This document shows, piece after piece, positions 14,629-60,751 of a DNA stretch of 64,000 nt. Source of the stretch: Candidatus Aldehydirespiratoraceae bacterium (GTDB lineage: Bacteria; Actinomycetota; Acidimicrobiia; Acidimicrobiales; Aldehydirespiratoraceae); the NCBI GenBank assembly GCA_965203375.1, contig OZ241886.1, positions 2,431,249 to 2,495,248 of the forward strand. The letters run 5' to 3'. Below the pieces are notes generated by a model. It saw only the letters and a list, made by a program, of their open reading frames with translations. It did no database searches and was not told the DNA's origin. Every line of letters starts with the position of its first letter. Position 1 is the stretch's first letter. The position numbers and the translations under genes were made by a program.

Positions 14629-17037
14629 TCAGCCGCCGGTCGCGTTGAGTTCGCTTTGCCATGTCTGTCCCCGATGGGTGAACTGGCCGGTGCTGATGCT
14701 GGCAATGTCGTAGTCGGGCAGCTTGACCTCCGCTGTGCATCTTCGGCCGTCGATGGATCCGCGCTCAATGAAGGCGAAGTCGAAATTGTCGAATCCGGAT
14801 TGTCGGCGGTGGTCGGGCAAATCCATTCTGTCGACTGGGAATACGTGTACGAAGAAATCGTCGCTGATATCACCGTTGTGGCATTGCTCTCGAATGTACA
14901 TCAAGGTTCTATCGCTGGTGAGATAGACATCAAAGCGGCCGCGAACAGCCGCAGTTGTGGGGAGGTTGATGACTTGATCCGCCCGTTGGTGCAACTCGGC
15001 ATTGGCTACATGGTCAGGCCCGAAGAATCTCCCACCCCAGATAGGTCCTCCACTGCTGGACTGGCCGGTGCTGATGCTGGCAATATCATAATCAGGCAGA
15101 TCAAAAATCACAACATACCGCTCGGCATCCATAATAAGCCGATCGAGCGGAGTGAAGCCGTAAGATTCGTGATCCTGGCTGGAATCCACAGGGTGGACTA
15201 TCAAATCGATAGGGCTTGACAGCAGCAGCGGATTTTCTGTGCAGCGATTCCCTATATATATGAGTTTTCTGTCATCGGTGAGGTAGACGTCAAAATCACC
15301 CCGAACCGCTGGCCTACTCCTTTCAACAATTTTGTTTATGCGTTCCTCATATGCATGCCGATCATACAGGTACATCACCTGATTGTCCGGCGTCAACAAA
15401 CCTCGAGCATCGTTTAGCTTGGGCTGAAGAATGAAATCAACTCTGTACGAATTGATGCGACAATCACGGCTATCAAATATGAGGCCACTGCCATGCAGAT
15501 AATAGAACAAGCCGTCATACGGCCAGACATAAGGATACCAGTCCCAGCCGTGGGGGTCGTATATGGGGATATCAGGGCGAGTATAGACAAGAATATTCCT
15601 TCCGTCGGTGAACGAGCGTATCATTTCAATATCATCTGCTATCAACTCTTCTATGTCCATAAACTCGGCACTAGGATCTTCAACCTCAGCATAGGCCACC
15701 CTATAGCTAGAGGTCACAAACAACACAAATGCACCCACTGCACTTAGCGGTAACAACTCTTTACCTTTGCCCGACCATTTATATAATAACGACAGAATCA
15801 AAGTATAAAAAAACAAGACCGCACCTACATAATACAAACTTTCAAATCCGTACGGATCATGTTGATGAATATTATATCGCATTGGAATTGACCAGCAGAA
15901 CCCGGAAAGAACTGCGGTCAAAGCCAGCAAACGATGACGCCTGAGATGAACCGCCCCGACTACACACACCCCGACCATGCCGATTCCCGCCAATGCAGCC
16001 TGAGGCACCGTCCGACCCGAGCCAGACCATGAACCGAATGGCAAAGCGAAAGGGATTGCCAGATACGACAATCTCTCCAACTGTGAATAAAGAAACGCAT
16101 CCCACCGTATCCTATAATCATCTGCCAGCCACTCATCCACGCTCCGCAGGTCTATTCCGGTGCGTCTCAACGCGGAGTCGACCGACGGCAGGTTTGATAA
16201 TGCTAATTGATCGCCTGCCCTAAAGTTGAGGGCATAGTATTCATTGGCGATATTGTAGGTTAATATCAATATCCCGAACCCCAGGGCAACAAACCCTAGA
16301 GTAAAATAGCGGCTAGTCATCACTCTCGATAAATAGAGTGAGAGTGAAAATCCTTGAATCGTCTTTGCCTTCTGCGCTTGGATGATCTCCTTGGCCAAGC
16401 CGAGAAGCACGAAAGGCAATAGCAACGCCAATACATGCCAGCCCAACAACAAAGCAAGACAGGCCTTAACCACTAACTGCCGAAAACGGCCATCTTGGGA
16501 GAAGATCACCATGCCATGGAAGGTAAGGGCGAACCCGAAAAGGTCGGGCATAAGTTCTGGCATTGTCGCGGTAGAATATGTCAACACTGTAGAGGATGCA
16601 AACCCCAGTAGAACTGCCGTGGAAGCAATCCATCGGTTTGAGATAAGCCGACATAGCGACCAATAGGCTAACACCACAGTACCGGCGAAGAACGCCACCA
16701 TAAGCATTTGAACCGCGGCGATACGAGTAGACAGGCCGTCACCCACAACCAAAGTGACTAACTTCATCAGCATATAGCCACCAGGAGGGAATCTATTATA
16801 TGCCACATAATCGATACCACCAGATACGTCGTAAATCTGATTAAAAAACCCCAGGAAATAGTGACTAGGGGAAAGATTGACGGCCACCGTTAAGTGCTGA
16901 TAATTCGAACGATATCCTTCGTTTAGAGTGCCAGTTATCCTGCCGAAGAAAAAAAACGTGGACAACCCGATCAACAACAAAACAAGCGGCAACGACCTCA
17001 GCCACAAGGCCGACCGATTATGACGCAAGAGAGCCAC
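14629..17037 (-). CDS. large polytopic membrane protein, paralog A (N-terminal ~10-12 TM + C-terminal duplicated soluble domain); possible GT-C-like glycosyltransferase
   Basis: low-GC gene; GTG start after GGTAGGAGA RBS; internal duplicated motifs LPDYDIASISTGQ and RG.FDVYLT.DR.L.YI; function not recognised. Confidence 0.65.
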   Translation of the reverse strand: MALLRHNRSALWLRSLPLVLLLIGLSTFFFFGRITGTLNEGYRSNYQHLTVAVNLSPSHYFLGFFNQIYDVSGGIDYVAYNRFPPGGYMLMKLVTLVVGDGLSTRIAAVQMLMVAFFAGTVVLAYWSLCRLISNRWIASTAVLLGFASSTVLTYSTATMPELMPDLFGFALTFHGMVIFSQDGRFRQLVVKACLALLLGWHVLALLLPFVLLGLAKEIIQAQKAKTIQGFSLSLYLSRVMTSRYFTLGFVALGFGILILTYNIANEYYALNFRAGDQLALSNLPSVDSALRRTGIDLRSVDEWLADDYRIRWDAFLYSQLERLSYLAIPFALPFGSWSGSGRTVPQAALAGIGMVGVCVVGAVHLRRHRLLALTAVLSGFCWSIPMRYNIHQHDPYGFESLYYVGAVLFFYTLILSLLYKWSGKGKELLPLSAVGAFVLFVTSSYRVAYAEVEDPSAEFMDIEELIADDIEMIRSFTDGRNILVYTRPDIPIYDPHGWDWYPYVWPYDGLFYYLHGSGLIFDSRDCRINSYRVDFILQPKLNDARGLLTPDNQVMYLYDRHAYEERINKIVERSRPAVRGDFDVYLTDDRKLIYIGNRCTENPLLLSSPIDLIVHPVDSSQDHESYGFTPLDRLIMDAERYVVIFDLPDYDIASISTGQSSSGGPIWGGRFFGPDHVANAELHQRADQVINLPTTAAVRGRFDVYLTSDRTLMYIREQCHNGDISDDFFVHVFPVDRMDLPDHRRQSGFDNFDFAFIERGSIDGRRCTAEVKLPDYDIASISTGQFTHRGQTWQSELNATGG

Positions 17038-17052
17038 TGATCTCCTACCTCA

Positions 17053-19500
17053 CTAGCCGCCAGTGGGGTTGAGTTCGCTGCGCCATATTTGTCCTTGATT
17101 GGTGAACTGTCCGGTGCTGATGCTGGCGATATCATAGTCGGGCAGTTCGATCTCCCCTACGCATCTTTGGCCGTCGATGGATCCGTATTCGGTGAAGGCG
17201 AAGTCGAAATTGTCGAATCCGGATTGTCGGCGATGGTCGGGCAGGTTCATTCTGTCAACTGGGAATATATGCACGAAGAAGTCGTCGCTGATATCACCGT
17301 TGTGGCATTGCTCTCGAATGTACATCAAGGTTCTATCGCTGGTGAGATAGACATCAAAGGGGCCGCGAACAGCCTCGATCCGTGAGAGACTGATGACTTG
17401 ATCCGCCCGTTGGTGCAACTCGGCATTGGCTACATGGTCGGGCCCGAAGAATCTCCCACCCCAGATAGGTCCTTCACTGCTGGACTGGCCGGTGCTGATG
17501 CTGGCAATATCATAATCGGGCAGATCAAAAATCACAACATACCGCTCGGCATCCATAATAAGTAGCTCGTGCATAGTGAAACCGTATAATTTGTAATCCT
17601 GACTGGAATCGGAGAGAACATTAGTATCCACAGGATAGACCATCAGATGAACATGATTTGACAGCAATAACGGGTTTATTGTGCAGCGATTTCCGACATA
17701 CAGGAGCTTTCGGTCATCGGTAAGATAGACATCAAAATCACCCCGAACCGCTGGCCCGATTTTTTCGACTATTTTATCTATACGTTCCTCATAAACATGC
17801 CGGTCATACAGGTACATCACCTGATTGTCCGGCGTCAACAAGCCTTGAGCGTCGTTCTGCTTAGGCTGAAGAATGAAATCCACTCTGTACGAACTGATGC
17901 GACAATCACGGCTATCAAATATAAGTCCACTGCCATGCAGATAATAGAACAACCCGCCATACGGCCAGATATAGGGATACCAATCCCAGCCGTGAGGGTC
18001 GTATATAGGGATATCAGGGCGAGTATAGACAAGAATATTCTTTCCATCACTTAACTGTCGGATAGTTTCAACATCATCTACTATCAAACTCTCTATATCA
18101 ATAAAAGCTTTGTCATTAGGACGCTCGATTTCAGCATAGGCTACCTTGTAGCTGGAGGTCACAAACAACACAAATGCACCTACTGCACTTAGCGGTAACA
18201 ACTTTTTACCTTTGCCCGACCATTTATATAATAACGACAGAATCAAGGTATAGAAAACCAAAATTACACCTATATAGTACAAACTCTCAAAAAAGTGCGG
18301 GCCAGTATTGTATCGCATAGGAATCGACCAGCAAAACCCGGAAAGAACCGCGGTCAGAACCAACAGACGATGACGCCTGAGGTGAACCGCCCCGATCACA
18401 CATACCCCGATCATGCTGATTCCCGCCGATGCAGCCCAAGGTATTGTTTTAACCAAGACCGTCCTATCCAAGCTAGACCATGAACCGAACGGCAAGGCAA
18501 AGGGAATCGCCAAGTACGACAATCTCTCCAACTGCGAATAAAGAAAAATATACCACTGCACCTGATATTCGCTGCTCAGCCATCTCCCTATTTCATCCGG
18601 GTTCCCTATGTCTGTTCCGGTGCGTCTCAACGCGGAGTCGATCGATGGCATATCTGATAATGCCAATTGATCGCCCGCCCTAAAGTTGAGGGCATAGTAT
18701 TCATTGGCGATATTGTAAGTTAATATCAATATCCCGAACCCCAGGGTAACAAACCCCAAGGTGAAATAGCGACTAGTCACCGCTCTCGATAAATAGAGTG
18801 ACAATGAGAATCCTTGAATCGTCTTTACCTTCCGAGCTTGGATGATTTCCTTAGTCAAGCCGAGAAGTACGAAAGGCAAGAGCAACGCCAATACATGCCA
18901 ACCCAACAACAAAGCAAGACATGCCTTAACAACCAACTGCCGGAAACGACCATCCTGAACGAAAATCACCATGCCATGAAAGGTGAGCGAAAACCCGAAA
19001 AGGTCGGGCATGATTTCCGGTATCGTCGCGGTAGAATATATCAACACCGTAGAGGATGAGAACCCCAACAAAACTGCCGTCGAAGCAATCCACCGGTTTG
19101 AGATAAGCCGACATAGCGACCAATAGGCCAACACCGCGGTTCCAGCGAAGAACGCCACCATAAGCATTTGAACAGCCGCGACACGAATAGACAAGCCATC
19201 ACCTACAACCAAAGTGATCAACTTCATCAGCATATAGCCACCAGGAGGAAATTTATTGTAGGCCGCATAATCGATACTACCAGATACGTCATAAACCTGA
19301 TTCAGGAACCCCAGGAAATGGTGACTGGGAGAAAGATTGATCGCCGCTGCCATATGTTGATGAGAAAGAAAATAGTTTTCGTTTAGGGTGCCAGTTATCC
19401 TGCCGAATAAAAAAATCGTGGACAACCCGATCAACAACAAGATGAGCGGCAACAACCTCAGCCTCGAAGCCAACCGACCTTGACCTAACGGAGCCACCAA
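17053..19500 (-). CDS. large polytopic membrane protein, paralog B (same architecture as A)
   Basis: TTG start after GGTAGGGGA RBS; same TM and C-terminal motif layout as A, with near-identical nucleotides over the 3'-terminal ~450 bp. Confidence 0.65.
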   Translation of the reverse strand: MVAPLGQGRLASRLRLLPLILLLIGLSTIFLFGRITGTLNENYFLSHQHMAAAINLSPSHHFLGFLNQVYDVSGSIDYAAYNKFPPGGYMLMKLITLVVGDGLSIRVAAVQMLMVAFFAGTAVLAYWSLCRLISNRWIASTAVLLGFSSSTVLIYSTATIPEIMPDLFGFSLTFHGMVIFVQDGRFRQLVVKACLALLLGWHVLALLLPFVLLGLTKEIIQARKVKTIQGFSLSLYLSRAVTSRYFTLGFVTLGFGILILTYNIANEYYALNFRAGDQLALSDMPSIDSALRRTGTDIGNPDEIGRWLSSEYQVQWYIFLYSQLERLSYLAIPFALPFGSWSSLDRTVLVKTIPWAASAGISMIGVCVIGAVHLRRHRLLVLTAVLSGFCWSIPMRYNTGPHFFESLYYIGVILVFYTLILSLLYKWSGKGKKLLPLSAVGAFVLFVTSSYKVAYAEIERPNDKAFIDIESLIVDDVETIRQLSDGKNILVYTRPDIPIYDPHGWDWYPYIWPYGGLFYYLHGSGLIFDSRDCRISSYRVDFILQPKQNDAQGLLTPDNQVMYLYDRHVYEERIDKIVEKIGPAVRGDFDVYLTDDRKLLYVGNRCTINPLLLSNHVHLMVYPVDTNVLSDSSQDYKLYGFTMHELLIMDAERYVVIFDLPDYDIASISTGQSSSEGPIWGGRFFGPDHVANAELHQRADQVISLSRIEAVRGPFDVYLTSDRTLMYIREQCHNGDISDDFFVHIFPVDRMNLPDHRRQSGFDNFDFAFTEYGSIDGQRCVGEIELPDYDIASISTGQFTNQGQIWRSELNPTGG

Positions 19501-34468: not shown

Positions 34469-34617
34469 CCAGAGGTTGTTTCGGCGACGGGCTCGGCCGC
34501 CGACTCGCAGCTCGACCGCAGTCTCCTCGTGTCCGACCCACAGTGTCCGCCGAGTGGTGGGCTTTGCGGTAGCCGCAGGGGTCCGCCCCGAGTGGGCCAT
34601 CGGCGAGGTGTACGCTG

Positions 34618-35844
34618 GTGACAATGGGGGGAGGAGCCATCGGTGCCCAGATCCGGGGGCTGAGGGAGGCTGTGGGTTGCGAGCGATCGGCTCTGGCTGA
34701 GGCGCTGGGGCTCGATCCCGCCGAGATGGCGGAGATGGAGTTCGGCCGCCGGGCTGTCCGGGCGGAGGATGTCGCGGCCGCTGCTGAGTTCTTGGGCGTC
34801 TCACAACTGGCGATCCTGCAGCCGGGGTCGCTGCTCGGACGGCTCGCGGTGGCTGCCCGCACGAACGGTCACGGTGAACCGGACCGGGGGGCGGTGATGC
34901 GCCTGACGGCTCTGGCGGAACTGAGCCATGTGCTGACCCAAGGCGGCCACCCCCCTCCTCTTGCCCCGTCCGGCACCGACGGGGCACCTGAGGGTAAGCC
35001 GGGCCAGTCGTGGCTGAGCCGCGCTCGCGACCTGGCCGAATGGGCCGTCGGGCAGTTCGGCTCAGGTTGGAGGCAGGGCCACCCGCTGCCCGATCTGGCC
35101 GAAGCCATAGAGGACAGCCTGAGCGTTGATGTGATGGTGGAGGGCCTCGGCGGCACCGGGGCGCCGCTAGGCGTTTCCATAACCGACGCGGATTTCCCCT
35201 TCATCATGGTCAACGCCGATCAGCCCACCCCTCGGGCGCTGTTCTCCCTGGCCCACGAGTTGGGCCACGTTTTGAGCCGAGACGGCTACGCGCTGCGAAT
35301 CGACAACCACTTTCGGGCGCCCAACGACAGCGAACGGGCAGCCAACGCCTTCGCCGCCAGCCTGCTGATGCCCGAGGACGACGTGCGCCGCACCGTCGCC
35401 CAGCACGGTCGCACTGCCGAGTCTTTGGCCCGGATGCTCATTGACTTCGGTGTGAGCTATGAGTCGCTCATCTACCGGTTGCACAATCTGAGACTCATCA
35501 ACGCCAACGGCCGAGACCGTCTCAAAGCCGTGGGCTGGGCTGGCCTCATGAACGCCGTCAACGACGCCGGTGTCACCAAAGCGTTGCTCTCTGCTCGGGG
35601 CACTCGACCGGCGCGACGGCCTCCCATCCTGCTGGCGAGGCGATGTCTGCGCGGAGCGCTGGACGGAACGGTGAGCGCGGCCCCGCTGGCAAGGCTGCTC
35701 AACGCCGACATCGACGAAATAATCGACAAGATCGACTCGATAGGACCTGAATCCGCTGCCGCGATCAACGATAACTACTCGTCGCCACCCGATCCTGACG
35801 ATGTCGCCCACTCGGCTTTAGACGACGATCCCTTAGCCGTGTAG
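34618..35844 (+). CDS. XRE-family HTH fused to ImmA/IrrE-family zinc metallopeptidase
   Basis: HTH region IRGLREAVGCERSALAEALGL...; HEXXH as LAHELGHVL. Confidence 0.8.
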   Translation: MTMGGGAIGAQIRGLREAVGCERSALAEALGLDPAEMAEMEFGRRAVRAEDVAAAAEFLGVSQLAILQPGSLLGRLAVAARTNGHGEPDRGAVMRLTALAELSHVLTQGGHPPPLAPSGTDGAPEGKPGQSWLSRARDLAEWAVGQFGSGWRQGHPLPDLAEAIEDSLSVDVMVEGLGGTGAPLGVSITDADFPFIMVNADQPTPRALFSLAHELGHVLSRDGYALRIDNHFRAPNDSERAANAFAASLLMPEDDVRRTVAQHGRTAESLARMLIDFGVSYESLIYRLHNLRLINANGRDRLKAVGWAGLMNAVNDAGVTKALLSARGTRPARRPPILLARRCLRGALDGTVSAAPLARLLNADIDEIIDKIDSIGPESAAAINDNYSSPPDPDDVAHSALDDDPLAV

Positions 35845-35860
35845 GCCCGATCGGGCTTCG

Positions 35861-36424
35861 GTGGCGACGATGAAACCGGTGCTGCACGACGCGGTCACCT
35901 TGCGCCACTTTGCCGCTGTATCTAGAATCGATATTCTAGAAGCCCGGCACGGACAACGGCCGCCGCCTCTGTGGGCAGAAGCCGTGCATGAAGAAATACG
36001 ATCTGGCGTGGAAGCGGGCAACGCATACTGTTCTGATGTGCTTGAAGCCTCATGGCTTGGGAACCCTGCGCCTGTGCAAGAAGCCGACTTAGAGCCTATC
36101 TTCTTCTTACAGGTGGGCATAAATCAAGGTATCTATCCTCCCGATATGAAGCGTAACCGAGGAGAGGCAGAAAGCATCTATTTTGCTGAAAGACACGACG
36201 GACAATTCGCCACTGACGACAACGCGGCTTACAAGTTCGCCTGTCGGCGGCCTTCACTCGGCCCTGGCAGAGTGATCGACTCCATCGACATCTTAAGAAC
36301 CGCCGTCGCCCTAGGAGAGATCACCGCGACTGACGCCTTCACCGTCGCTGAAAACATAGAAGCAGAAGGGCGATTCTTCCGACCAGAACATCGCATCCCC
36401 AGAAAACCCAGCTACTTCACCTAA
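35861..36424 (+). CDS. hypothetical protein, possible PIN-like nuclease partner of ImmA/IrrE (DUF4411-like)
   Basis: 17 bp downstream of the ImmA/IrrE gene; low GC; N-terminal VLHDAVTLRHF strand and later acidic residues are compatible with a PIN fold; fold assignment is inference. Confidence 0.5.
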   Translation: MATMKPVLHDAVTLRHFAAVSRIDILEARHGQRPPPLWAEAVHEEIRSGVEAGNAYCSDVLEASWLGNPAPVQEADLEPIFFLQVGINQGIYPPDMKRNRGEAESIYFAERHDGQFATDDNAAYKFACRRPSLGPGRVIDSIDILRTAVALGEITATDAFTVAENIEAEGRFFRPEHRIPRKPSYFT

Positions 36425-37377
36425 GAGCATGCGCGGATTGCTCAGGGGTTTGGGTTCCAGCGGTTGCGGTGGTTGATGAGTTTGGCGGTGAGGATGCAGG
36501 CGATGGCGAGGGCGAGTTGGGCTCGTCGGTGGTGGGGACGGCGGTCGGTGTTGCGTCGGAGTTGCCCGAAGTTCGACAGCCATGAGTTGGTGCGTTCGAT
36601 GCTCCAGCGCCGGCCGAGGGGCACGGGCCGGGGCCCGGCGGCGCCTGGGGAGCGTCTTTGGGGGCAGGCGACGTCGGCGATGCCCGCGTCGGCGCACAGG
36701 CGGCGCGCAGTGGCGCTGTCATAGCCGCGGTCTAGGTGCAGGGTCTCGATGCCCTGGAGCAGTCCCCGCCGGCCGGCGGCTCGCAGGGTGGGTTCCAGCA
36801 GGGTCAGGTCACAGCGGTTGGCGCCGTCGAGCGCGGCTACGGCCGGTATGCCCCAACGGTCGGTCAAAAGCGACCACTTGAACCCGAGTTTGCCCCTGTC
36901 AACAGGGCTTTTGCCGGTTCCTTCGCCTCCGCAGGGGGCCTTGTGGATTGACCCGTCGATGCAGGCTTCGGTCAGGTCCAGCCCCACGATGCGGTCATAG
37001 GCCTCGACGGCTTCGTCTTCGAGGTCCTCGAACACCCCCGCGGCGATCCATTCGTCGCGGCGGGCCCGCATGGTGGTGTCAGACACCCGGCCCCCCAACA
37101 GCTTCTCCGCGGTGACCCATGAGCAGCCGGTGACCAGCCGGGTGAGCATCCCCCAAAAACAGATCCGGTCCGGGATCCGCGGCCTGTGCCCCCGGGTTGA
37201 GGGTCTCTGTGCCCGGACCGGGACCCGGGACTTGATCGCGGCCCACACCGCATCCACCACCTCAGGAACCAACGCGCGCATGATGTAGCCGGCCTCCACG
37301 GTCGTCTTGTTGCTGACACCCCGACATACAAGCCGGGACAACCAGACGACCCGTGGATGGTCAATCCGCGCGCGCTC
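36425..37377. mobile_element. IS5-family insertion sequence (IS1031-like), intact
   Basis: 16-bp terminal inverted repeats GAGCATGCGCGGATTG / CAATCCGCGCGCGCTC with 14/16 matches; 3-bp TAA direct repeats at 36422-36424 and 37378-37380. Confidence 0.8.
36442..37281 (-). CDS. IS5-family DDE transposase
   Basis: HLDRGYDS and RWSIERTNSWL motifs; ~280 aa single ORF. Confidence 0.8.
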   Translation of the reverse strand: MRALVPEVVDAVWAAIKSRVPVRAQRPSTRGHRPRIPDRICFWGMLTRLVTGCSWVTAEKLLGGRVSDTTMRARRDEWIAAGVFEDLEDEAVEAYDRIVGLDLTEACIDGSIHKAPCGGEGTGKSPVDRGKLGFKWSLLTDRWGIPAVAALDGANRCDLTLLEPTLRAAGRRGLLQGIETLHLDRGYDSATARRLCADAGIADVACPQRRSPGAAGPRPVPLGRRWSIERTNSWLSNFGQLRRNTDRRPHHRRAQLALAIACILTAKLINHRNRWNPNP

Positions 37378-37752
37378 TAAGCCGGGCGACATCGTGCTGC
37401 CGCAGAAGGCGGAAGCAGTAGCCGTGGATCGTGCCCACGAACAGGCCCCCGATCCGTGAGATGGCCACCTCGGTGCTTGACAGCGGCCAGTGCGTCGCCC
37501 TCCAGGGTTGGCACGTCCATCCGCTCATTGTGCCGGGAGGATGCTCTACCCGCCGCAGCCTCAAAGATTTTTCCGAACGGGCGTTGTGACTGTCACAGGG
37601 GTCTGATACATTGTCGCTACCGGTCGTGGAACCTCGCAGGCGGAATCGTCAGCGGGTTCCGGCGCTTCCCCGGACCGGTGAAATCGCCAGCGCAGGCCGG
37701 CCCCAGGACCGACCCGGCTCCTTCGGGAGTTGGGCTTGCGAGGAAGCGCAAC

Positions 37753-39090
37753 ATGTTCGAAGCATTCAAGACCTTCATCGACACACTGAACGGCTCCGAT
37801 GTGGGGGCCTTGGACCGGGCCGGGCTGGACGAAGCCGCCGGCTGGACCAAGCGGGCCCGCTCGGCCCTCGACGCCTACGAAGCCCGGCTGCTGACCGCCG
37901 CCAACCGGGCCTTCGACGGCGGCGCGGCCGGCGCCGAACTGATGCGAACCGCCGCCGGATGCTCCCAGCGCGAGGCCCGCCGCCGGGCCCGCCGAGCCGA
38001 AACCCTGGCCGACATGCCCGCCGTGGCCCAAGCCCTGTCGGATGGCGCCATCACCGCCGAACACGCCGACGCGTTGGTGAAGGCCGCCGAGGCCACCTCG
38101 ACAGCGGCGGTGGACGCCGACCCGTCCCTGCTGGCCAAGGCCGAGTCGCTGCCCGCCGATTTGGCCGCCCGAGAGGTCGCGGATTGGGCTCACCGCCGCC
38201 AATCCGAACAAGACCGCGAAGCCAAGCTCCGCCGCCAGCGGGCGCTGCGCAGCCACCGAACCTGGATCGACGCCGACGGCATGTTCAACACCAGAGGCCG
38301 CTTCGACCCCGTCACCGGCGCCAGCATCCGAGCCGTCATCGACGACACCGCCAACCGCCTCTACCGAACCGACGGAGGCCGAGACGGCGGCAACAAAATC
38401 CGCACCTGGGACCAGCGCAACGCCGACGCCCTAGCCGCCGCCCTAGGAGTGATCCCCACCCCCGTGACAGGACCCGCCGGCCGGGACAACCCGCAACCCG
38501 CCAGCCGAGATGAACACCAACTTGCCATCACGAACCGGCACGGCCCCAGCCTGCGCAACCAGATCCTCGTCATCGCCCACACCGACGCCATCACCGGCGC
38601 CGACCCCGACGCCCCCTGCGAAATCCCCGGAACCGGCCCCATACCCCGCTCTGAACTCGAACGGCTTGCCTGCGAGTCGGAATTGTTCGGAATCCTCTTC
38701 GACGGCCGCGGCCTGCCCCTATGGCACGGACGACGAACCCGAACCGTCACCCCCCAGCAATGGCGAACCCTGGTAGCCCGAGACCGCGGCTGCGTCCTCT
38801 GCGGCACCAACCCCTCCTACTGCCACGCCCACCACATCGTGCCATGGACCGCCCCCGCCGAAGGCCCCACCGACATCGACAACCTCGTGCTGGTCTGCAA
38901 CCGGCACCACCACCACATCCACCAACACCACCTCACCCTCACCCGCCACCCCGACGGCCACTGGACAACGGCCGACTCCAGCCACCGAAAACCCGCCCAC
39001 AGCAACCACCACAACAACGGCACGAGACCGGCTAGCCGCGACCACACTCCGGCAGCCAAGCCGCCAACCGGTATCAGAGCCGGACCATGA
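37753..39090 (+). CDS. DUF222 + HNH endonuclease (REP13E12-family-like)
   Basis: N-terminal DUF222-like region; C-terminal HNH (CVLCGTNPSYCHAHHIVPW...DNLVLVCNRHH). Confidence 0.8.
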   Translation: MFEAFKTFIDTLNGSDVGALDRAGLDEAAGWTKRARSALDAYEARLLTAANRAFDGGAAGAELMRTAAGCSQREARRRARRAETLADMPAVAQALSDGAITAEHADALVKAAEATSTAAVDADPSLLAKAESLPADLAAREVADWAHRRQSEQDREAKLRRQRALRSHRTWIDADGMFNTRGRFDPVTGASIRAVIDDTANRLYRTDGGRDGGNKIRTWDQRNADALAAALGVIPTPVTGPAGRDNPQPASRDEHQLAITNRHGPSLRNQILVIAHTDAITGADPDAPCEIPGTGPIPRSELERLACESELFGILFDGRGLPLWHGRRTRTVTPQQWRTLVARDRGCVLCGTNPSYCHAHHIVPWTAPAEGPTDIDNLVLVCNRHHHHIHQHHLTLTRHPDGHWTTADSSHRKPAHSNHHNNGTRPASRDHTPAAKPPTGIRAGP

Positions 39091-39127
39091 CCACCGAGGC
39101 CCCGGGGCCGGGTTTGGCAGCCGATCC

Positions 39128-39225
39128 GCCAGGCCGGGGGTGGCACGGGGGCAAGGTTTTTGCCGCCCCGCGGCGAAAACCGCGCCCGTGACAGGACCCG
39201 CCGGCCGGGACGAACGGCAACGACC
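39128..39225. repeat. ~110-bp dispersed repeat, copy A
   Basis: 5' box GCCAGGCCGGGGGTGGCACGGGGG, G(T)nGCCGC...GCGGC(A)nC hairpin, 3' box CCCGTGACAGGACCCGCCGGCCGGGACGA (also present inside the HNH gene at 38462-38490). Confidence 0.6.
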
Positions 39226-41299: not shown

Positions 41300-41743
41300 C
41301 TACTGTCGGTTCGGGTTGCGATCGAGCCAGATCTGGAGCGTTTCGGTGGTCCAAGTAGGCACGCCAGTACCCAGGTAGTCGTTGTCGTTGGTCCAGATAC
41401 CCGCCGACAGCACCAACGCGCAGGCGACCGCGGGCCAGTCGTCGGGGTCGCGCCGTGACCGGGCGAGAGCCTCGTCCTCGGCAGCGGCGTAGACGGCCTT
41501 GTCAATCACGGTGATGTTGGCTCGGACAGTCCCGAGGCAAATGGAGGTCAACTCTTCGACGATCTCGTATCGGAGCTGCCGAGCGCGCCCGAACGCTGCG
41601 GCCCGCCGGGGCAGTTCCACGGTTGTCTCAATCCACATCTGGTCAGGCAAGAACAATTCGAGCCGGTCATCCTCTAGACGTTGACGGCCCTTGACGCGAA
41701 GCAACTCGCCGACGAGCACGCTGGTGTCGACGACCAGTCGCAT
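41300..41743 (-). CDS. vapC: type II toxin VapC (PIN domain)
   Basis: MRLVVDTSVLVGELL N-terminus; ATG overlaps antitoxin stop (TGATG). Confidence 0.75.
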   Translation of the reverse strand: MRLVVDTSVLVGELLRVKGRQRLEDDRLELFLPDQMWIETTVELPRRAAAFGRARQLRYEIVEELTSICLGTVRANITVIDKAVYAAAEDEALARSRRDPDDWPAVACALVLSAGIWTNDNDYLGTGVPTWTTETLQIWLDRNPNRQ

Positions 41744-41985
41744 CAACACCAGCCGCGGGTTACCTCTTCGACCAACTCGTCTTCGTTGAGGCCGGTCCTG
41801 GCCAGGATGTCCTCGACCACATCGCCCAAACGCTCGAGAGCTTCCCGGCCAGCGCGTCGGTCTTTCGCCGAGATGGGGACGAAGAACCCGATGGGCTCGC
41901 CGCGGCGCTCTATGACAAGCATCTCTCCCGCGCTCATCATCCGCGTCGCCCCGTCTCTGAACTCTCTCACTCCGACGGTCCTCAT
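41743..41985 (-). CDS. Phd/YefM-family antitoxin
   Basis: MRTVGVREFRDGATRMM...; 80 aa; translationally coupled to vapC. Confidence 0.7.
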   Translation of the reverse strand: MRTVGVREFRDGATRMMSAGEMLVIERRGEPIGFFVPISAKDRRAGREALERLGDVVEDILARTGLNEDELVEEVTRGWC

Positions 41986-42072
41986 AGAACACTCCTCAAC
42001 GGTTGTGGTCACCAATGTAGCCACAACATGAATGTAACAGCGATGCCGGGTGATCCCGTTACTTGAATCCCA

Positions 42073-42185
42073 TGCGCCAGGCCGGGGGGTGGCACGGGGG
42101 TTAGCGTCGGCGCCGCTCGCGGCGACGACCGCCCCCGTGACAGGACCCGCCGGCCGGGACGATCCGCAACCGCCCGCGACGGACA
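42073..42185. repeat. ~110-bp dispersed repeat, copy B
   Basis: same 5' box, hairpin and 3' box as copy A. Confidence 0.6.
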
Positions 42186-54938: not shown

Positions 54939-56206
54939 CCGGACCCGGCACCCTCAACCACGTCGACACCGAAGCCGACTCGGCTGCCCTTGACCGCGGA
55001 GACAGCAGGGCCGACCCGACCGCCTTCCACCGCGCCGACGCCGGAGCCGACCCGGTCGCCTTCGATCACGTCGACGTCGGGGGCAAGCGCAGCCCCCACA
55101 ACGCCAAGTGGTCCCAATACGGCCCCGACGTTCTGCCGGCCTGGGTGGCCGAGCACGACTTCCGCCAGCCCGACTCGGTGATAGAGGCCATGCGGGCCAC
55201 GATCGACCGGGGCGAGCTGGGCTATCACCGCCGCGACTCTGAGGTGGCCGAGGCCTTCGGGGGCTGGGCCCGGTCCCGCTACGGCTGGGACCCCGACCCG
55301 GCGCTGGCCGCGGTGTGCGTGGACGCCCTCCAGGGCGTCGTCGCCGCGGTCACCGCACTGGCCGGCCCCGGCGAGGGGGTGATCCTGACGCCGCCCGTCT
55401 ACCACGTGTTCTGGCAGATCTGCCCCACCTCGGGGCGGCGGCCGGTGGAGTGGCCGATGCGGCAAGGCCCCGGCGGATGGCGCCTCGACCCCGACGACCT
55501 CGAAGCGGTGGCCGCGGCCGACCCCGGCGCCAAGGTGCTGTTGCTGTCGCACCCCCAGAACCCCACCGGCCGGGTGGCCGACCGAGACACCCTGGCCCGC
55601 ATCGTCGAGGTGGCCCGCGATCGCGGCCTCTACGTCGTGTCCGACGAGATTCACGGCGACATGGTGTACCCCCCGGCCGAATTCGTGCCCATGCTGTCGC
55701 TGGACGGCGCCGCCGACCGGGTGATAACCGTGACCTCGCCGGCCAAGACCTTCGCCCTGTCGGGGCTGCGCTGCGCCCTAACCGTCTTCGGCTGCCCGGA
55801 GCTGCGCCGCCGGGTGATCGAGGCCCACCCTCCCCTGCTGCTGGGCCACGCCTCCCGGACGGGCATCGACGCCTCGGTGGCGGCCTGGACCGAGGGCGGG
55901 GCCTGGGCCGACCGGCTGCTCGACCAGCTCCGGGCGAACCGCGACCATCTGGCCCGGCGGCTGGCGGCCGAGGCCCCGGCGGTGCGGATGCACCTGCCGG
56001 AGTCGACGTTTCTGGCCTGGCTGGACGTGTCGGCCTGCGGCCTGGGCCACCGGCCCGCCGCCGCCCTGCTGGAGCGGGCCCGGGTGGCGCTGCTGGAGGG
56101 AACCGAGTTCGGGACCGGCGGCGAAGGCTGCGTGCGGCTCAACTTCGGGACGTCTGAGGCGCTGCTAGACGCCATAATAGACCGGCTCATCCCCCATCTG
56201 CGATGA
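54935..56206 (+). CDS. MalY/PatB-family PLP-dependent C-S lyase / aminotransferase
   Basis: FDHVDVGGKRSPHNAKW (PatB-type N-terminus), PLP-lysine context; start uncertain, GTG 54935 is the only nearby candidate. Confidence 0.75.
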   Translation: MTGPGTLNHVDTEADSAALDRGDSRADPTAFHRADAGADPVAFDHVDVGGKRSPHNAKWSQYGPDVLPAWVAEHDFRQPDSVIEAMRATIDRGELGYHRRDSEVAEAFGGWARSRYGWDPDPALAAVCVDALQGVVAAVTALAGPGEGVILTPPVYHVFWQICPTSGRRPVEWPMRQGPGGWRLDPDDLEAVAAADPGAKVLLLSHPQNPTGRVADRDTLARIVEVARDRGLYVVSDEIHGDMVYPPAEFVPMLSLDGAADRVITVTSPAKTFALSGLRCALTVFGCPELRRRVIEAHPPLLLGHASRTGIDASVAAWTEGGAWADRLLDQLRANRDHLARRLAAEAPAVRMHLPESTFLAWLDVSACGLGHRPAAALLERARVALLEGTEFGTGGEGCVRLNFGTSEALLDAIIDRLIPHLR

Positions 56207-58341
56207 CCGACCACCAGGGCCGTAGGTTCGAAATGCTCTTGCAGCGGTGTCCGTGGCTGGCTTGCGCGCTGTTTGTGGGAGTCGCGCTCGTCCATAACGA
56301 TACCCCCACCCCGCAGGATACAGTCTGGACCGCCCAAGCGACGACACCGGCCGAGACGACGGTGCAAGACTCGGCTAGATTATTAGGATCTATTGCCCCA
56401 GTTGAGGACGATCAAGGTTCGGATAAGGGCTCGATAGTTTTGTCATGGCCTAATCTTGGTGATACTTCAATCACTCATTATCAGTATAGATTCAGGAGTG
56501 CATCAAAGGCAGGGTACGGTCCGTGGATAGATGTTCCCTTCAACTATGAGACCACCACTGTAAATACCATCACCAACCTTAAAACGGATATGGCCTATCA
56601 TATACGATATCGAGCCTGCAGGCCGACCAAATGCGGAATTGCGAGAGTTAAATGGCATGTAAGAGCTTGCAACACGGGCGAATGTAAAGCTAAAAAGCTT
56701 CAAATAAGGGTTCCAGTGTTTCCGTCGGATGTTCCCCCTCCACCTGGTTTCTGGTTCTTAGACGATGACGGCAGTATCCACGAGGGCGCCATTGAGGCAC
56801 TCGCGGCCGTGGGCGTCGCCCGAGGGTGCCGATACGACCTCTATTGCCCCGATGAGGAGGTGACCCGCGGCCAGTTCGCCGCGCTATTGGCGCGGGCCTT
56901 TCCCGGCTTGGTCCCCGACGACGCCGACGACTTCTTCGGCGACGACGACGGCAGCGTCCACGAGGCCGCCGTCAACGGCCTCGCCGCTGCGGGGATCGCG
57001 AGCGGCTGCGGGCCGGGCCGTTACTGCCCCGCCGAACCGATGACCCGAGCCCAGATGGCGACACTGCTGGCCCGGGCCCTCCCCGGTTTGGCTTCCCCCG
57101 ACCGGGATCATTTCTCCGATGACGACGGGACCGTCCATGAGGTCGCCATCAACGCGTTGGCCGAAAACGGCATCGTCTCCGGCTGCGGACCGGGCCGGTA
57201 CTGCCCCGACGATCCGATGCGGCGCGATCAGGCGGCGACGCTGCTGGCCCGGGCACTGGACCTGAAGCCGACCCAGCCTGAGCCGAGCCCGTGGCGGCTC
57301 GAGCCGGTGGCCGACGGCATCGACGGCGGCCCCACCGACCTCCAAGCCCCAGACGGCGACGACCGCTTGTTCCTGGCAACCAAACAGGGGGCGATCCTCA
57401 TAATCGCCGACGGCGCCCTATTGACCGAACCGTTTCTTGACTTGACCAGCGAAGTCATGTCCGCGGGCGGCGAACAAGGTCTGCTCGGGATGGCATTCCA
57501 CCCCCACTACGACACCAGCTTCAGGTTCTATGTCTTTTATACCGACTTAGACGGCCATAGCCAAATATATGAGTACCGGACCGACCCCGAGAACCCGAAC
57601 CAGGCCGACGCTTCCACCGCCCGTCACATCATCACCATCGAACAGACCAACGCTATACATATGGGCGGACAGCTTCAATTCGGCGCTGACGGCTACCTAT
57701 ACATAGCCGTCGGTGACGACCTGCTCTCTAACAACGGACAGAACCCCAGAACAGCGCCGGGAACCATCCTCCGCATAGATATAGACGACGTCGACTCCTA
57801 CTCGATTCCTGCCGACAACCCCTTCGCCGACGGCCAAGAAGGTCTACCCGAAGTCTGGGCCTACGGGCTGCGTAACCCCTGGCGATTCAGCTTCGACGGC
57901 TCCAACATCTACATCGCTGATGTAGGGCATAATGAACGAGAGGAAATCAACATCGTCGACACCTCAAGGGGTGGAATAAACTACGGCTGGCCCATCGTGG
58001 GTGATACCCAATGCATCAACTCAAACTCGAACTGCGCCGGACTGTTCACCCCTCAAATCGAATACTACCGCAACGATGGGTTTGCCGTCATCGGCGGCTA
58101 CGTATATCGAGGCACCGCCATAGGTGAGATGACCGGCCGATACTTCTACTCCGACATCAGCGGCCGATGGATCCGCACCTTCGCCTACCAAGACGGCGAG
58201 ATCACCGAGCACTATGACTGGTCCCAGGCGATCGAAGATCTCGGGCAGGTGTGGTCATTCGGCAAAGACGGCCACGGAGAGCTCTACGTGCTGACCAGCG
58301 ACGCCGTCTACAAGATCGCCCCCGCTAGCCTCAACCCATGA
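56203..58341 (+). CDS. surface protein paralog 1: TM/signal + FN3 + 3 SLH-like repeats + PQQ-type soluble sugar dehydrogenase beta-propeller
   Basis: ATG overlaps aminotransferase stop (ATGA); SLH-like FSDDDGS.HE.AI..LA..GI..GC....YCP....TR.Q.A.LLARA x3; propeller motifs GLLGMAFHP, GGQLQFGADGYLY, GLRNPWRFSFD, GGINYGWP. Confidence 0.75.
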   Translation: MTDHQGRRFEMLLQRCPWLACALFVGVALVHNDTPTPQDTVWTAQATTPAETTVQDSARLLGSIAPVEDDQGSDKGSIVLSWPNLGDTSITHYQYRFRSASKAGYGPWIDVPFNYETTTVNTITNLKTDMAYHIRYRACRPTKCGIARVKWHVRACNTGECKAKKLQIRVPVFPSDVPPPPGFWFLDDDGSIHEGAIEALAAVGVARGCRYDLYCPDEEVTRGQFAALLARAFPGLVPDDADDFFGDDDGSVHEAAVNGLAAAGIASGCGPGRYCPAEPMTRAQMATLLARALPGLASPDRDHFSDDDGTVHEVAINALAENGIVSGCGPGRYCPDDPMRRDQAATLLARALDLKPTQPEPSPWRLEPVADGIDGGPTDLQAPDGDDRLFLATKQGAILIIADGALLTEPFLDLTSEVMSAGGEQGLLGMAFHPHYDTSFRFYVFYTDLDGHSQIYEYRTDPENPNQADASTARHIITIEQTNAIHMGGQLQFGADGYLYIAVGDDLLSNNGQNPRTAPGTILRIDIDDVDSYSIPADNPFADGQEGLPEVWAYGLRNPWRFSFDGSNIYIADVGHNEREEINIVDTSRGGINYGWPIVGDTQCINSNSNCAGLFTPQIEYYRNDGFAVIGGYVYRGTAIGEMTGRYFYSDISGRWIRTFAYQDGEITEHYDWSQAIEDLGQVWSFGKDGHGELYVLTSDAVYKIAPASLNP

Positions 58342-60719: not shown

Positions 60720-60751
60720 CCTCCGATCAACCTGCTCATCCCCCACCTGCA

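What the first reader, a model, noticed from the sequence alone, without database searches (positions are those of the whole stretch)
34618..36424. HTH-ImmA/IrrE protease fusion with a low-GC PIN-like partner: candidate stress- or phage-responsive toxin module
An XRE-type HTH fused to a COG2856 zinc peptidase (HELGH) is followed 17 bp later by a 187-aa ORF whose DNA is conspicuously AT-richer than its surroundings. Its N-terminus (VLHDAVTLRHFAAV, then conserved acidic positions) is compatible with a PIN/DUF4411-like nuclease fold. ImmA/IrrE-type protease/repressor pairs typically guard mobile elements or toxin cargo and de-repress on DNA damage. This pair sits at the edge of an IS/HNH/VapBC cluster.
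Basis: partly seen in the sequence, partly recalled or inferred. Interest (0 to 1): 0.7.

Follow-up and report, generated by a model that had tools for sequence, protein, structure and literature searches.

The report
Repressor-protease gene paired with PIN-like nuclease
This is a two-gene cassette acquired by horizontal transfer, a DNA-binding repressor fused to a zinc protease followed by a very divergent PIN-type nuclease, and it belongs to a long-predicted and partly validated class of toxin-antitoxin or phage-defence modules, so it is a well-supported but fairly ordinary find.

Summary

The pair is tightly linked. Every full-length B in the related genome loci, plus a Streptomyces plasmid, has A directly upstream, and the only exceptions are decayed or fragmentary copies. 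Both genes are under purifying selection (dN/dS about 0.13). Across the family a palindrome, TTGCG-N5-CGCAA, overlaps A's promoter and co-varies with the HTH recognition helix. The window's own site is divergent and tentative. Homologues lie in defence or TA islands (PsyrTA, Bil, Thoeris TIR, Wadjet-like genes, RM).

Most likely this is a RosmerTA-like / COG2856-PIN toxin-antitoxin module: A autorepresses and holds B in check until its protease is triggered. B is neither DUF4411 nor DUF3368 by sequence. I rate it a new member of a known kind, of modest interest.

The parts
34564..34578 (.). Candidate operator, TTGCGGTAGCCGCAG. It is an inverted repeat related to the family palindrome TTGCG-N5-CGCAA. 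The assignment is tentative in this lineage.
   Evidence: It is the only match with at most 1 mismatch in the 64 kb, lies 54 nt upstream of the GTG at 34618, and is identical in L040. The family motif is present upstream of A in 22 of 30 distinct loci, at 7.5 sites per kb against 0.04 per kb elsewhere. The motif co-varies with the HTH recognition helix, but the window's helix (AEMAEME) differs from the SAVSNLE type and the site is displaced from the usual -36 position.
34611..34616 (+). A -10-like hexamer, TACGCT (TAnnnT), 7 nt before the ATG at 34624. This implies a leaderless or near-leaderless mRNA for gene A.
   Evidence: Read from the sequence. Equivalent GATACT or CATACT hexamers lie 7-9 nt before the start codon in most related loci. 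The simple sigma-70 scan finds no canonical promoter here.
34618..35844 (+). Gene A, a fusion of an XRE-type HTH repressor domain with an M78 (ImmA/IrrE, COG2856) zinc metallopeptidase domain. It is 408 aa from the GTG at 34618, and the likelier start is the ATG at 34624 (406 aa).
34639..34806 (+). HTH DNA-binding domain of A (residues 8-63). The recognition helix is at about residues 34-41 (PAEMAEME).
34819..34872 (+). Conserved linker between the HTH and the protease (residues 68-85, QPGSLLGRLAVAARTNGH; family consensus EPDSLLGRLPVAxRTNGD). It is a candidate self-cleavage or pseudo-substrate segment, which is inference only.
   Evidence: P69, S71 and R75 are invariant, and E68, L72, L76, A79, R81, N83 and G84 are at least 90% conserved. 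The model has a short strand at residues 80-82 and lower pLDDT of 65-78 here. The translation was verified.
35173..35484 (+). M78 peptidase core (residues 186-289). HELGH is at 35254-35268, and the third zinc ligand E239 lies in the motif SERAANAFAASLLMPE.
   Evidence: H213, E214 and H217 are present in 43 of 43 homologues, E239 in 38 of 43 and N243 in 42 of 43. The HELGH translation was verified. E239 is equated with IrrE E113 from my own memory of the IrrE motif, not from a tool result.
35503..35841 (+). Family-specific, all-helical C-terminal region of A (residues 296-408) with a conserved acidic tail (DYS-SP-D...FD-DPVAA). Proposed toxin-binding or neutralising part, which is inference.
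   Evidence: Conserved across 43 homologues: R342, C343, G346, G350, P356 and L357 are invariant, and S388, P390, D392, D404 and P405 are at least 90% conserved. The model is helical, with no GAF-like alpha/beta domain. It is not covered by the Pfam, RmrA or CapP profile matches, which end near residue 300.
35870..36424 (+). Gene B, a divergent PIN-like nuclease and the putative toxin or effector (184 aa from the ATG at 35870; the GTG at 35861 would give 187 aa). Acidic positions, numbered from the GTG: D10 (35888), E45 (35993), E102 (36164), T118-D119-D120 (36212-36220) and D140 (36278).
36425..37377 (-). Context, not part of the module: an IS5-family insertion sequence (DUF4096 + DDE_Tnp_1 transposase) inserted exactly at B's TAA stop codon. 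B's reading frame is intact.
   Evidence: Pfam. The terminal inverted repeats are GAGCATGCGCGGATTG and CAATCCGCGCGCGCTC, flanked by a (C)TAA(G) duplication. The empty site CACCTAAGTCGGGC is seen in L040.
34488..34535 (-). Context: a remnant of the 3' end of a HigA-like (HTH_37) gene. About 757 bp carrying a Gp49/HTH_37 TA pair, present in L040, is missing here.
   Evidence: blastn of the window against L040, and the L040 gene table.

Best explanation
Genes A and B form a self-contained, horizontally mobile two-gene toxin-antitoxin-type module of the Xre-COG2856 + PIN class, which is the class RosmerTA belongs to. B is a divergent PIN-domain nuclease, most likely an RNase, that acts as the growth-arresting effector. 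A has three parts. Its N-terminal XRE HTH binds a palindrome overlapping its own promoter and represses the A-B operon. This step is shown by comparative evidence in the family and is tentative in the window. Its C-terminal helical region and acidic tail hold B inactive, which is inferred. Its catalytically intact M78 zinc protease is the switch: on a trigger such as DNA damage, ssDNA or a phage cue, as for CapP, IrrE and ImmA, it cleaves A itself, in cis or between subunits and plausibly in the conserved linker at residues 68-85. That would lift both repression and neutralisation so that B degrades RNA, giving abortive infection or stasis. All of this last step is inferred by analogy. In this window the module is intact and under purifying selection. 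It lies in a small island of selfish elements, its toxin half has a more AT-rich origin, an IS abuts B's stop codon, and a neighbouring HigBA-like pair has been deleted.
For: The catalytic residues of both proteins are conserved. The linkage is obligate: in a tblastn of 39 genome loci, A lies directly upstream of every full-length B. The exceptions are a frameshifted remnant, L025, and short fragments (L038, L039). L037 is intact with a 3-nt gap. A distant pair (25% identity) on a Streptomyces plasmid overlaps by 4 nt. Spacers of 3-34 nt in most loci indicate an operon. The palindrome is about 190-fold enriched upstream of A and co-varies with the recognition helix. dN/dS is 0.14 for A and 0.125 for B. 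Homologues sit in defence or TA neighbourhoods: PsyrTA, VapBC, C5 methylases, Type ISP, Bil/Multi_ubiq, dCTP deaminase, ThsB_TIR, AbiEi, integrases and a Wadjet-like operon. The composition is foreign. Published precedent: Xre-COG2856 with PIN was predicted as a three-component TA (PMC2701414, PMC5499597). RosmerTA antitoxins are zinc peptidases and deletion of rmrA could not be obtained (10.1101/2022.05.11.491447). NetFlax notes ImmA-node associations with PIN-like domains (PMC10440598). CapP cleaves CapH on ssDNA or DNA damage (10.1101/2022.04.27.489752).
Against: B matches no PADLOC RmrT model and no PIN-clan HMM. The Foldseek E-values are weak, no better than 1e-2. The 3D clustering of B's acidic residues could not be measured. 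The fourth acidic position varies in distant relatives. In the window the operator-like site is displaced to -54, against about -36 elsewhere, and A's recognition helix differs from the clade that carries the motif. A lacks the GAF domain that CapP and IrrE have, so the trigger may differ. In PD-lambda-2 the Xre-peptidase fusion, not its partner, was the toxic component. S. pneumoniae Xre-COG2856 candidates are the subject of a functional-validation paper that appeared in my search, but I did not read it (PMC4257102, listed).
Confidence: 0.6

Rival explanations
1. A is purely a fused CapH/CapP- or ImmR/ImmA-type switch that responds to DNA damage or phage, and does not neutralise B at the protein level. 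It represses transcription and inactivates itself by proteolysis on a trigger. B is simply the induced cargo nuclease, and the cassette may also regulate adjacent defence operons such as Wadjet, DISARM or Bil.
For: The best profile and fold matches of A are to CapP. A conserved operator overlaps the promoter. On the Streptomyces plasmid the pair lies directly upstream of, and co-oriented with, DUF2397/TIGR02678/TIGR02680 genes, which I recognise from memory as Wadjet JetABC. In L046 it is divergent from a Bil operon. Lau et al. report a vapC-like gene plus a CapH-CapP fusion-like gene at a Nocardia DISARM locus.
Against: The only constant neighbour is B, and the flanking systems differ from locus to locus and are often housekeeping genes. 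In the window nothing regulatable lies downstream except an IS and a DUF222-HNH gene. A carries a 110-residue conserved C-terminal region and tail with no role in a pure repressor-protease model. Leaky expression of an unneutralised PIN nuclease would be costly to the cell.
Confidence: 0.2
2. The roles are reversed, as in PD-lambda-2: the Xre-peptidase fusion A is the toxic component and B neutralises or modulates it.
For: In PD-lambda-2 the Xre-peptidase protein alone was toxic and its partner rescued the cells. Makarova et al. originally listed COG2856 as the predicted toxin of the Xre pair.
Against: B keeps a fully conserved PIN catalytic set, which is unnecessary for a mere neutraliser. 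The gene order, regulator first and effector second, is typical of type II TA systems. RmrA-type zinc peptidases were confirmed as antitoxins.
Confidence: 0.07
3. The pair is a non-toxic stress-response pair. A is an IrrE-like damage sensor and regulator, and B is a PIN or FEN-like nuclease used in nucleic-acid repair or processing rather than a toxin.
Against: The distribution is patchy and island-like, the composition is foreign, and some copies sit next to a tRNA or an integrase. The pair co-localises with defence and TA genes. Decayed copies exist. The best structural matches are VapC toxins.
Confidence: 0.08
4. In this particular window the module is a decaying relic that no longer functions. 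An IS sits at B's stop codon, the upstream region has been deleted, and the operator has diverged.
For: The IS abuts B, and about 757 bp upstream of A has been lost relative to L040. The operator-like site is atypical. Fragmentary copies of the module occur in other genomes.
Against: Both ORFs are full length, with all catalytic residues present. dN/dS of 0.13-0.14 against L040 indicates continuing purifying selection. The 77 nt upstream of A, including the -10-like box and the palindrome, are retained and are 96.7% identical to L040.
Confidence: 0.05

Closest known systems
Xre-COG2856 (HTH-DUF955/M78) + PIN-like 'three-component' toxin-antitoxin systems, predicted by Makarova et al. 2009 (PMC2701414) and Matelska et al. 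2017 (PMC5499597)
   Same: The architecture is the same: an HTH fused to a COG2856 zinc peptidase with an intact HEXXH motif, followed in the same operon by a single-domain PIN-like protein that keeps its acidic residues. The distribution is mobile and patchy.
   Different: B matches none of the Pfam families those papers name for such partners, DUF4411/PF14367 and DUF3368/PF11848. Whether it corresponds to their unnamed clusters PIN_14, PIN_20 or PIN_26 could not be tested. The class itself is a prediction, and no member with a PIN partner is experimentally characterised in the literature I could search.
RosmerTA (RmrT/RmrA) anti-phage toxin-antitoxin systems (Millman et al. 2022; Ernits et al. 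2023)
   Same: A matches 15 RmrA profiles, the best at 5.5e-18. Like RmrA it is an HTH plus zinc peptidase protein next to a variable effector. Its homologues sit in defence islands.
   Different: B matches no RmrT model. The characterised RmrT toxins cited are of unknown function or depolarise the membrane, not PIN nucleases. The C-terminal 110 residues of A fall outside the RmrA profile matches. No phage-defence data exist for this family.
CapH/CapP (CBASS regulators), DdrO/IrrE(PprI) and ImmR/ImmA repressor-protease pairs
   Different: Here the repressor and protease are one polypeptide. There is no GAF domain, since the C-terminus is all helical. The cassette is not attached to CBASS, an ICE or a prophage in the window. 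The controlled cargo is a single PIN-like gene. [quoted passage not shown]
VapBC type II toxin-antitoxin systems
   Same: B has the VapC/PIN fold and the acidic residue pattern D...E...T-x-D...D. The module is a two-gene operon, regulator first, with autoregulation through an operator.
   Different: The antitoxin is not a small RHH, AbrB or Phd protein but a 406-aa HTH-protease. B is about 50 residues longer than VapC toxins and has no detectable sequence similarity to PIN HMMs or to the window's own PIN_2 toxin.
PD-lambda-2 (Vassallo et al. 2022)
   Same: It contains an Xre-HTH fused to an ImmA/IrrE-type peptidase within a TA-like defence operon. A matches PD-Lambda-2_B only weakly, at E = 0.08.
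   Different: PD-lambda-2 has three genes, with a HigB-like partner encoded upstream, and there the fusion protein is the toxic component. Here the partner is a downstream PIN-like protein.

Membership tests
Peptidase_M78 / COG2856 (ImmA/IrrE family) | A profile match above the curated threshold | tested here: met
   PF06114 scores 67.4 bits against a cut-off of 22, over residues 186-289.
Peptidase_M78 / COG2856 (ImmA/IrrE family) | The HEXXH zinc-binding and catalytic motif plus a downstream Glu ligand in the E-x3-N-x-F-A...LLMP motif | tested here: met
   HELGH is at 35254-35268. H213, E214 and H217 are present in 43 of 43 homologues and E239 in 38 of 43. E239 is equated with the IrrE third ligand from my memory of the IrrE motif.
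Peptidase_M78 / COG2856 (ImmA/IrrE family) | The fold of the protease core | tested here: met
Peptidase_M78 / COG2856 (ImmA/IrrE family) | Site-specific cleavage of an XRE-type repressor | not testable with these tools
   This needs biochemistry. The conserved linker at residues 68-85 is only a candidate cleavage site.
XRE-family HTH (HTH_31 / HTH_3) | A profile match above threshold, the HTH fold, and a cognate palindromic operator | tested here: met
PIN domain-like superfamily | The three-layer alpha/beta/alpha PIN fold | tested here: met
PIN domain-like superfamily | Conserved acidic active-site residues: Asp after strand 1, Glu in a helix, T/S-x-D after strand 3, and a fourth acidic residue | tested here: met
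   D10 follows strand 7-9, E45 lies in helix 40-51, T118-D119-D120 follow strand 115-117, and D140 follows a strand. All are invariant in 52 close homologues. In 51 distant ones they are at least 90% conserved, apart from the Thr/Ser (43 of 51) and the fourth acidic position (25 of 51).
PIN domain-like superfamily | A sequence-profile match to any PIN-clan family | tested here: not met
   B has no hit even at E up to 10. Among about 100 relatives there are only isolated sub-threshold hits (PIN-TPR-GreABC 0.005, PIN_5 0.004, PIN 0.017). hhalign against the window's PIN_2 toxin gives probability 0.1.
DUF4411 (PF14367) | A match to the family profile | tested here: not met
   There is no PF14367 hit for B or for 102 close and distant homologues.
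DUF3368 / COG2405 (PF11848) | A match to the family profile | tested here: inconclusive
RosmerTA | An RmrA-type antitoxin containing a zinc peptidase | tested here: met
   Fifteen RmrA profiles match, the best at 5.5e-18.
RosmerTA | An adjacent toxin that matches an RmrT model | tested here: not met
   B has no PADLOC hit.
RosmerTA | A toxic effector neutralised by the peptidase protein, and phage defence | not testable with these tools
   This needs toxicity, neutralisation and phage-challenge assays.
CapH/CapP regulator pair | A separate CapH repressor gene, a CapP with a C-terminal GAF domain, and a position upstream of CBASS or another defence operon | tested here: not met
   The HTH and protease are fused in one ORF. 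The C-terminal region is all helical. No CBASS genes are adjacent. The CapP profile and fold matches show relatedness of the protease core only.
NCBIfam spr1629 family repressor/antitoxin (NF052239) | A score above the equivalog cut-off | tested here: not met
   44 bits against a cut-off of 335.
Type II toxin-antitoxin module (generic) | A conserved two-gene operon with co-inheritance of both partners | tested here: met
   A lies directly upstream of every intact B in the genome loci and on one plasmid, with spacers from -4 to 34 nt in most. The identities of A and B fall together across loci.
Type II toxin-antitoxin module (generic) | Toxicity of one partner and neutralisation by direct binding of the other | not testable with these tools
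   No complex prediction or experiment was available.

The most novel reading that the evidence does not exclude
The A-B cassette may not be merely another TA pair. It could be a portable, self-enforcing sensor cassette: a single-chain CapH-CapP-like repressor-protease that switches on whichever defence system lies next to it (Wadjet, DISARM, Bil, PsyrTA) when it senses damage or infection. The PIN nuclease would serve as an addiction or back-up effector that keeps the regulator from being lost. Self-cleavage at the conserved linker EPDSLLGRLPVAxRTNGD would make A a LexA-like autoproteolytic repressor built on a metalloprotease scaffold.
Probability: 0.12. Interest if true: 0.6.

Novelty: new member of a known kind. 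Interest (0 to 1): 0.3.

Why it matters
If the inferred mechanism holds, this family would be a tractable example of the long-predicted but still unvalidated Xre-COG2856 + PIN "three-component" TA class. The family has about 800 representatives at 50% clustering, mostly in Acidimicrobiia and other Actinomycetota. It comes with three testable handles: a clearly defined operator that co-varies with the recognition helix, a strongly conserved candidate self-cleavage linker, and a PIN-like effector family that current Pfam, NCBIfam and PADLOC models miss. A profile for B would improve TA and defence annotation in actinobacterial metagenomes. For this particular window, the result mainly annotates two genes and shows that they sit in a small, recently rearranged island of selfish elements.

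Tried and rejected
**Sequence-profile identification of B.** Pfam, NCBIfam, PADLOC, PHROGs and PDB phmmer/hmmsearch, with the single sequence and with two alignments, all gave nothing. Only structure prediction resolved it.

**DUF4411 membership.** Rejected.

**DUF3368 membership.** Left open. The precomputed hits could not be reproduced with the current Pfam.

**AFDB fold search.** The library was unavailable.

**Translational-coupling hairpin.** An RNA hairpin pairing A's 3' end (35779-35791) with B's ribosome-binding site and start (35858-35870) folds somewhat better than shuffles (z = -2.3). It exists only in the window/L040 lineage and is not conserved elsewhere, so I do not claim it as a feature of the system.

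**Low GC as a family trait.** Rejected. It is lineage-specific.

**Canonical promoter or terminator.** No sigma-70 promoter or terminator is found around the operon, and there are no Rfam hits in the window.

**tRNA-linked integration.** The window has no tRNA. Only one clade (L007, L009, L028) has tRNA-Val immediately upstream of A.

**Phage carriage of B.** No hit in 50,697 phage records.

**hhalign of the B profile against the window's PIN_2 toxin.** No signal.

**The L025 exception (B without A).** It turned out to be a frameshifted remnant.
Full report
**1. The observation**

A carries HTH_31/HTH_3 (residues 8-63) and Peptidase_M78 (residues 186-289; 67.4 bits against a cut-off of 22). 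The HELGH motif translates from 35254-35268. B has GC 0.546 (GC3 0.557), against 0.684 for the whole window. The flanking cyclase gene has GC3 0.93-1.0, while A has 0.70-0.88 and B 0.45-0.72. Both genes are therefore compositionally foreign, B more so.

There are two small corrections. Homologues of B begin at MKPVLHD, so the ATG at 35870 (184 aa) is the likelier start. A probably starts at the ATG at 34624, 7 nt after a TACGCT -10-like box, which implies a leaderless mRNA, as in most related loci.

**2. What B is**

B matches nothing by sequence. I tried Pfam, NCBIfam, PADLOC, PHROGs and the PDB, with the single protein and with profiles of close and distant relatives. It has 140 relatives in the word-indexed search and about 800 cluster representatives in the exhaustive profile search. 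Most are from Acidimicrobiia MAGs (Ca. Aldehydirespirator, Ca. Poriferisodalis), with outliers in Nocardia, Pseudonocardiaceae, Streptomyces, Thermomicrobiales, Dormiibacterota and a Burkholderiales MAG.

The invariant residues D10, E45, E102 (in a GEAES motif), T118-D119-D120 and D140 sit at the ends of strands or in helices, in the order expected of a PIN active site. In 51 distant relatives they remain at least 90% conserved, apart from the Thr/Ser position (43 of 51) and the fourth acidic position, which varies (25 of 51). So B is a catalytically plausible but highly divergent PIN-like nuclease, about 50 residues longer than VapC toxins.

**3. What A is**

Two further regions are strongly conserved within this family only. 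One is the linker between the HTH and the protease (residues 68-85; consensus EPDSLLGRLPVAxRTNGD). The other is an all-helical C-terminal region (residues 296-408) ending in an acidic tail motif, DYS-SP-D...FD-DPVAA. There is no GAF domain like the one in CapP and IrrE.

**4. Linkage**

In a tblastn of 39 genome loci recovered with B, a homologue of A lies directly upstream of every full-length B. Spacers are 3-34 nt in most loci. The exceptions are a frameshifted remnant, L025, and short B fragments (L038, L039). L037, which at first looked partial, is intact with a 3-nt gap. A pair only 25% identical on a linear Streptomyces plasmid overlaps by 4 nt and is annotated "ImmA/IrrE family metallo-endopeptidase" plus "hypothetical protein". 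The identities of A and B decline together across loci. Against the 95-97% identical contig L040, dN/dS is 0.139 for A and 0.125 for B, so both genes are maintained by selection.

**5. Operator**

Upstream of A, 22 of 30 distinct loci carry one to three copies of the palindrome (C)TTGCG-N5-CGCAA(G). It usually ends about 7 nt before a GATACT or CATACT -10-like box, so it overlaps the promoter. The density is 7.5 sites per kb in the 120 nt upstream of A, against 0.04 per kb elsewhere in the loci.

The motif tracks the HTH recognition helix. All loci with S-A-(V/M)-S-N-(L/I)-E or close variants have it, including Nocardia, where A is only 27% identical. The Poriferisodalis clade, with an EELSAIE-type helix, has a different palindrome, CAAGCATCCGATACTTG. 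Loci with other helices have neither. This is good comparative evidence that A binds its own promoter.

In the window, the only match with at most 1 mismatch in 64 kb is TTGCGGTAGCCGCAG at 34564-34578, which is 54 nt upstream of A and identical in L040. About two such matches are expected by chance somewhere in 64 kb, so what is notable is its position. However, this lineage's recognition helix (AEMAEME) is divergent and the site is displaced, so I treat the window's operator as tentative.

**6. Context**

Homologues of the pair lie among defence and TA genes:
- PsyrA/PsyrT (PsyrT E = 3e-274) and VapBC in the Aldehydirespirator clade.
- HicB, AbiEi_4, ThsB_TIR, HNH, an IS and an integrase in Poriferisodalis.
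- A divergent Bil (BilA/B/D) operon, a dCTP deaminase and an integrase in L045/L046.
- C5 methylases, a Type ISP enzyme, DUF5615 and Multi_ubiq elsewhere.
- DUF2397/TIGR02678/TIGR02680 genes immediately downstream on the Streptomyces plasmid. I recognise these from memory as the Wadjet JetABC operon.

Some flanks are ordinary metabolic genes, and the PsyrTA contexts are syntenic among related genomes, so they are not independent observations. One clade has tRNA-Val immediately upstream of A. In L014 the pair has GC 0.53-0.56 within a locus of GC 0.69. No phage carries B.

In the window the module lies between a cyclase gene and a DUF222-HNH gene. Compared with L040, the window has gained an IS5-family element exactly at B's TAA stop codon; the empty site in L040 reads CACCTAAGTCGGGC. 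It has also lost about 757 bp carrying a Gp49/HTH_37 (HigBA-like) pair just upstream of A, leaving remnants. A PIN_2 toxin with an upstream ORF, a VapBC-like pair, lies at 41.3-42.0 kb.

**7. Mechanism**

Shown here:
- The domain identities and folds.
- Conservation of the catalytic residues of both proteins.
- Obligate gene linkage and operon geometry.
- A promoter-overlapping palindrome that co-varies with the recognition helix.
- Purifying selection on both genes.
- Horizontal mobility and a defence or TA neighbourhood.

Inferred by analogy with ImmR/ImmA, DdrO/IrrE, CapH/CapP and RosmerTA:
- A represses the operon and neutralises B, probably through its family-specific C-terminal region or tail.
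- A trigger related to DNA damage or infection activates the M78 protease.
- The protease cleaves A itself, and the conserved linker is the obvious candidate site.
- The freed and induced B then cleaves RNA and arrests growth.

The main rival is that A is only a transcriptional switch, a single-chain CapH-CapP, possibly also controlling neighbouring defence operons. Lau et al. note a vapC-like gene with a CapH-CapP fusion-like gene at a Nocardia DISARM locus, and the Streptomyces pair sits directly upstream of the Wadjet-like genes. A second rival is role reversal, as in PD-lambda-2, where the Xre-peptidase fusion was the toxic partner. I could not run a complex prediction, which would be the most informative computation.

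**8. Comparison and novelty**

The architecture was predicted in 2009 (PMC2701414) and catalogued in 2017 with several PIN-like partner clusters (PMC5499597). The zinc-peptidase antitoxin principle was validated for RosmerTA (10.1101/2022.05.11.491447; PMC10440598), and NetFlax notes ImmA-node links to PIN-like domains.

This locus is therefore a new member of a known kind. It is new in three respects. Current HMM libraries miss its PIN-like partner family. I found no experimentally characterised HTH-M78/PIN pair in the searchable literature. And the operator, linker and tail motifs are defined here. I rate the interest as modest (0.3).

Noticed in passing
window 36425-37377 (-): An IS5-family insertion sequence of about 953 bp (DUF4096 + DDE_Tnp_1 transposase). 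Its inverted repeats are GAGCATGCGCGGATTG and CAATCCGCGCGCGCTC, and it is flanked by a (C)TAA(G) duplication. It inserted exactly at the stop codon of gene B, and the empty site is present in the 95-97% identical contig L040.
   Followed up: yes
window 34469-34540; L040 1644-2504: Relative to L040 the window lacks about 757 bp encoding a divergently oriented Gp49 (HigB/RelE-like) + HTH_37 (HigA-like) TA pair between the cyclase gene and gene A. Short remnants of both gene ends remain, for example at 34488-34535.
   Followed up: partly
window 14629-17037 (-) and 17053-19500 (-): Two tandem paralogues of 802 and 815 aa, 81% identical, with strikingly low GC (down to 0.42 in a 0.68 genome). Their sequences look hydrophobic and membrane-like. 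Neither has a Pfam or PADLOC hit. This is clearly a foreign island of unknown function.
   Followed up: partly
window 38445-38497, 39121-39221, 42069-42170: A GC-rich repeat of 53 to about 100 nt (core CCCGTGACAGGACCCGCCGGCCGGGAC; 91% identity between the second and third copies). One copy lies inside the DUF222-HNH gene, one just downstream of it, and one upstream of the VapBC-like pair. L040 also has extra copies. It may be a remnant of, or a target for, REP13E12-like DUF222 elements.
   Followed up: no
window 37456-39090 (+): A DUF222 + HNH endonuclease gene, immediately downstream of the IS. From memory this is the type of the mycobacterial REP13E12 repeat family. It is present at the same place in L040.
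   Followed up: no
window 41303-41743 (-) and about 41746-41985 (-): A VapBC-like pair. The toxin is a PIN_2 domain protein (E = 6e-30). The 80-aa upstream ORF (MRTVGVREF...) looks Phd/YefM-like to me but matched no PADLOC model and was not scanned against Pfam. Its stop overlaps the toxin's start. Neither protein matches a PADLOC model.
   Followed up: partly
window 56203-62868 (+): Three consecutive paralogous genes (712, 793 and 653 aa) encoding SLH + glucose/sorbosone dehydrogenase (GSDH) beta-propeller proteins, two of them with fn3 domains. Their GC is lower than the surroundings (GC3 about 0.7).
   Followed up: no
window 35779-35791 with 35858-35870: A stem of 11-13 bp pairs the codons for the SSPPDP tail motif of A with the ribosome-binding site and start region of B (MFE -45 kcal/mol for the 126-nt junction region (35765-35890), z = -2.3). 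It is present in the window and L040 only and is not conserved in other loci.
   Followed up: yes
L007 2275-2351, L009 2646-2722, L028 2645-2721: In one clade of related genomes a tRNA-Val(GAC) gene lies immediately upstream of the A-B pair, which suggests insertion of the cassette at a tRNA locus.
   Followed up: partly
L047 (Streptomyces sp. BB1-1-1 plasmid NZ_CP134205) 3811-10510: A distant A-B pair lies directly upstream of, and co-oriented with, DUF2397/TIGR02678/TIGR02680 genes, which I recognise from memory as the Wadjet JetABC operon. SbcCD-like genes lie on the other side.
   Followed up: partly
L014 2774-4543: In this Acidimicrobiales genome the A-B pair has GC 0.56 and 0.53 inside a locus of GC 0.69, a clear case of recent horizontal acquisition of the whole cassette.
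   Followed up: no
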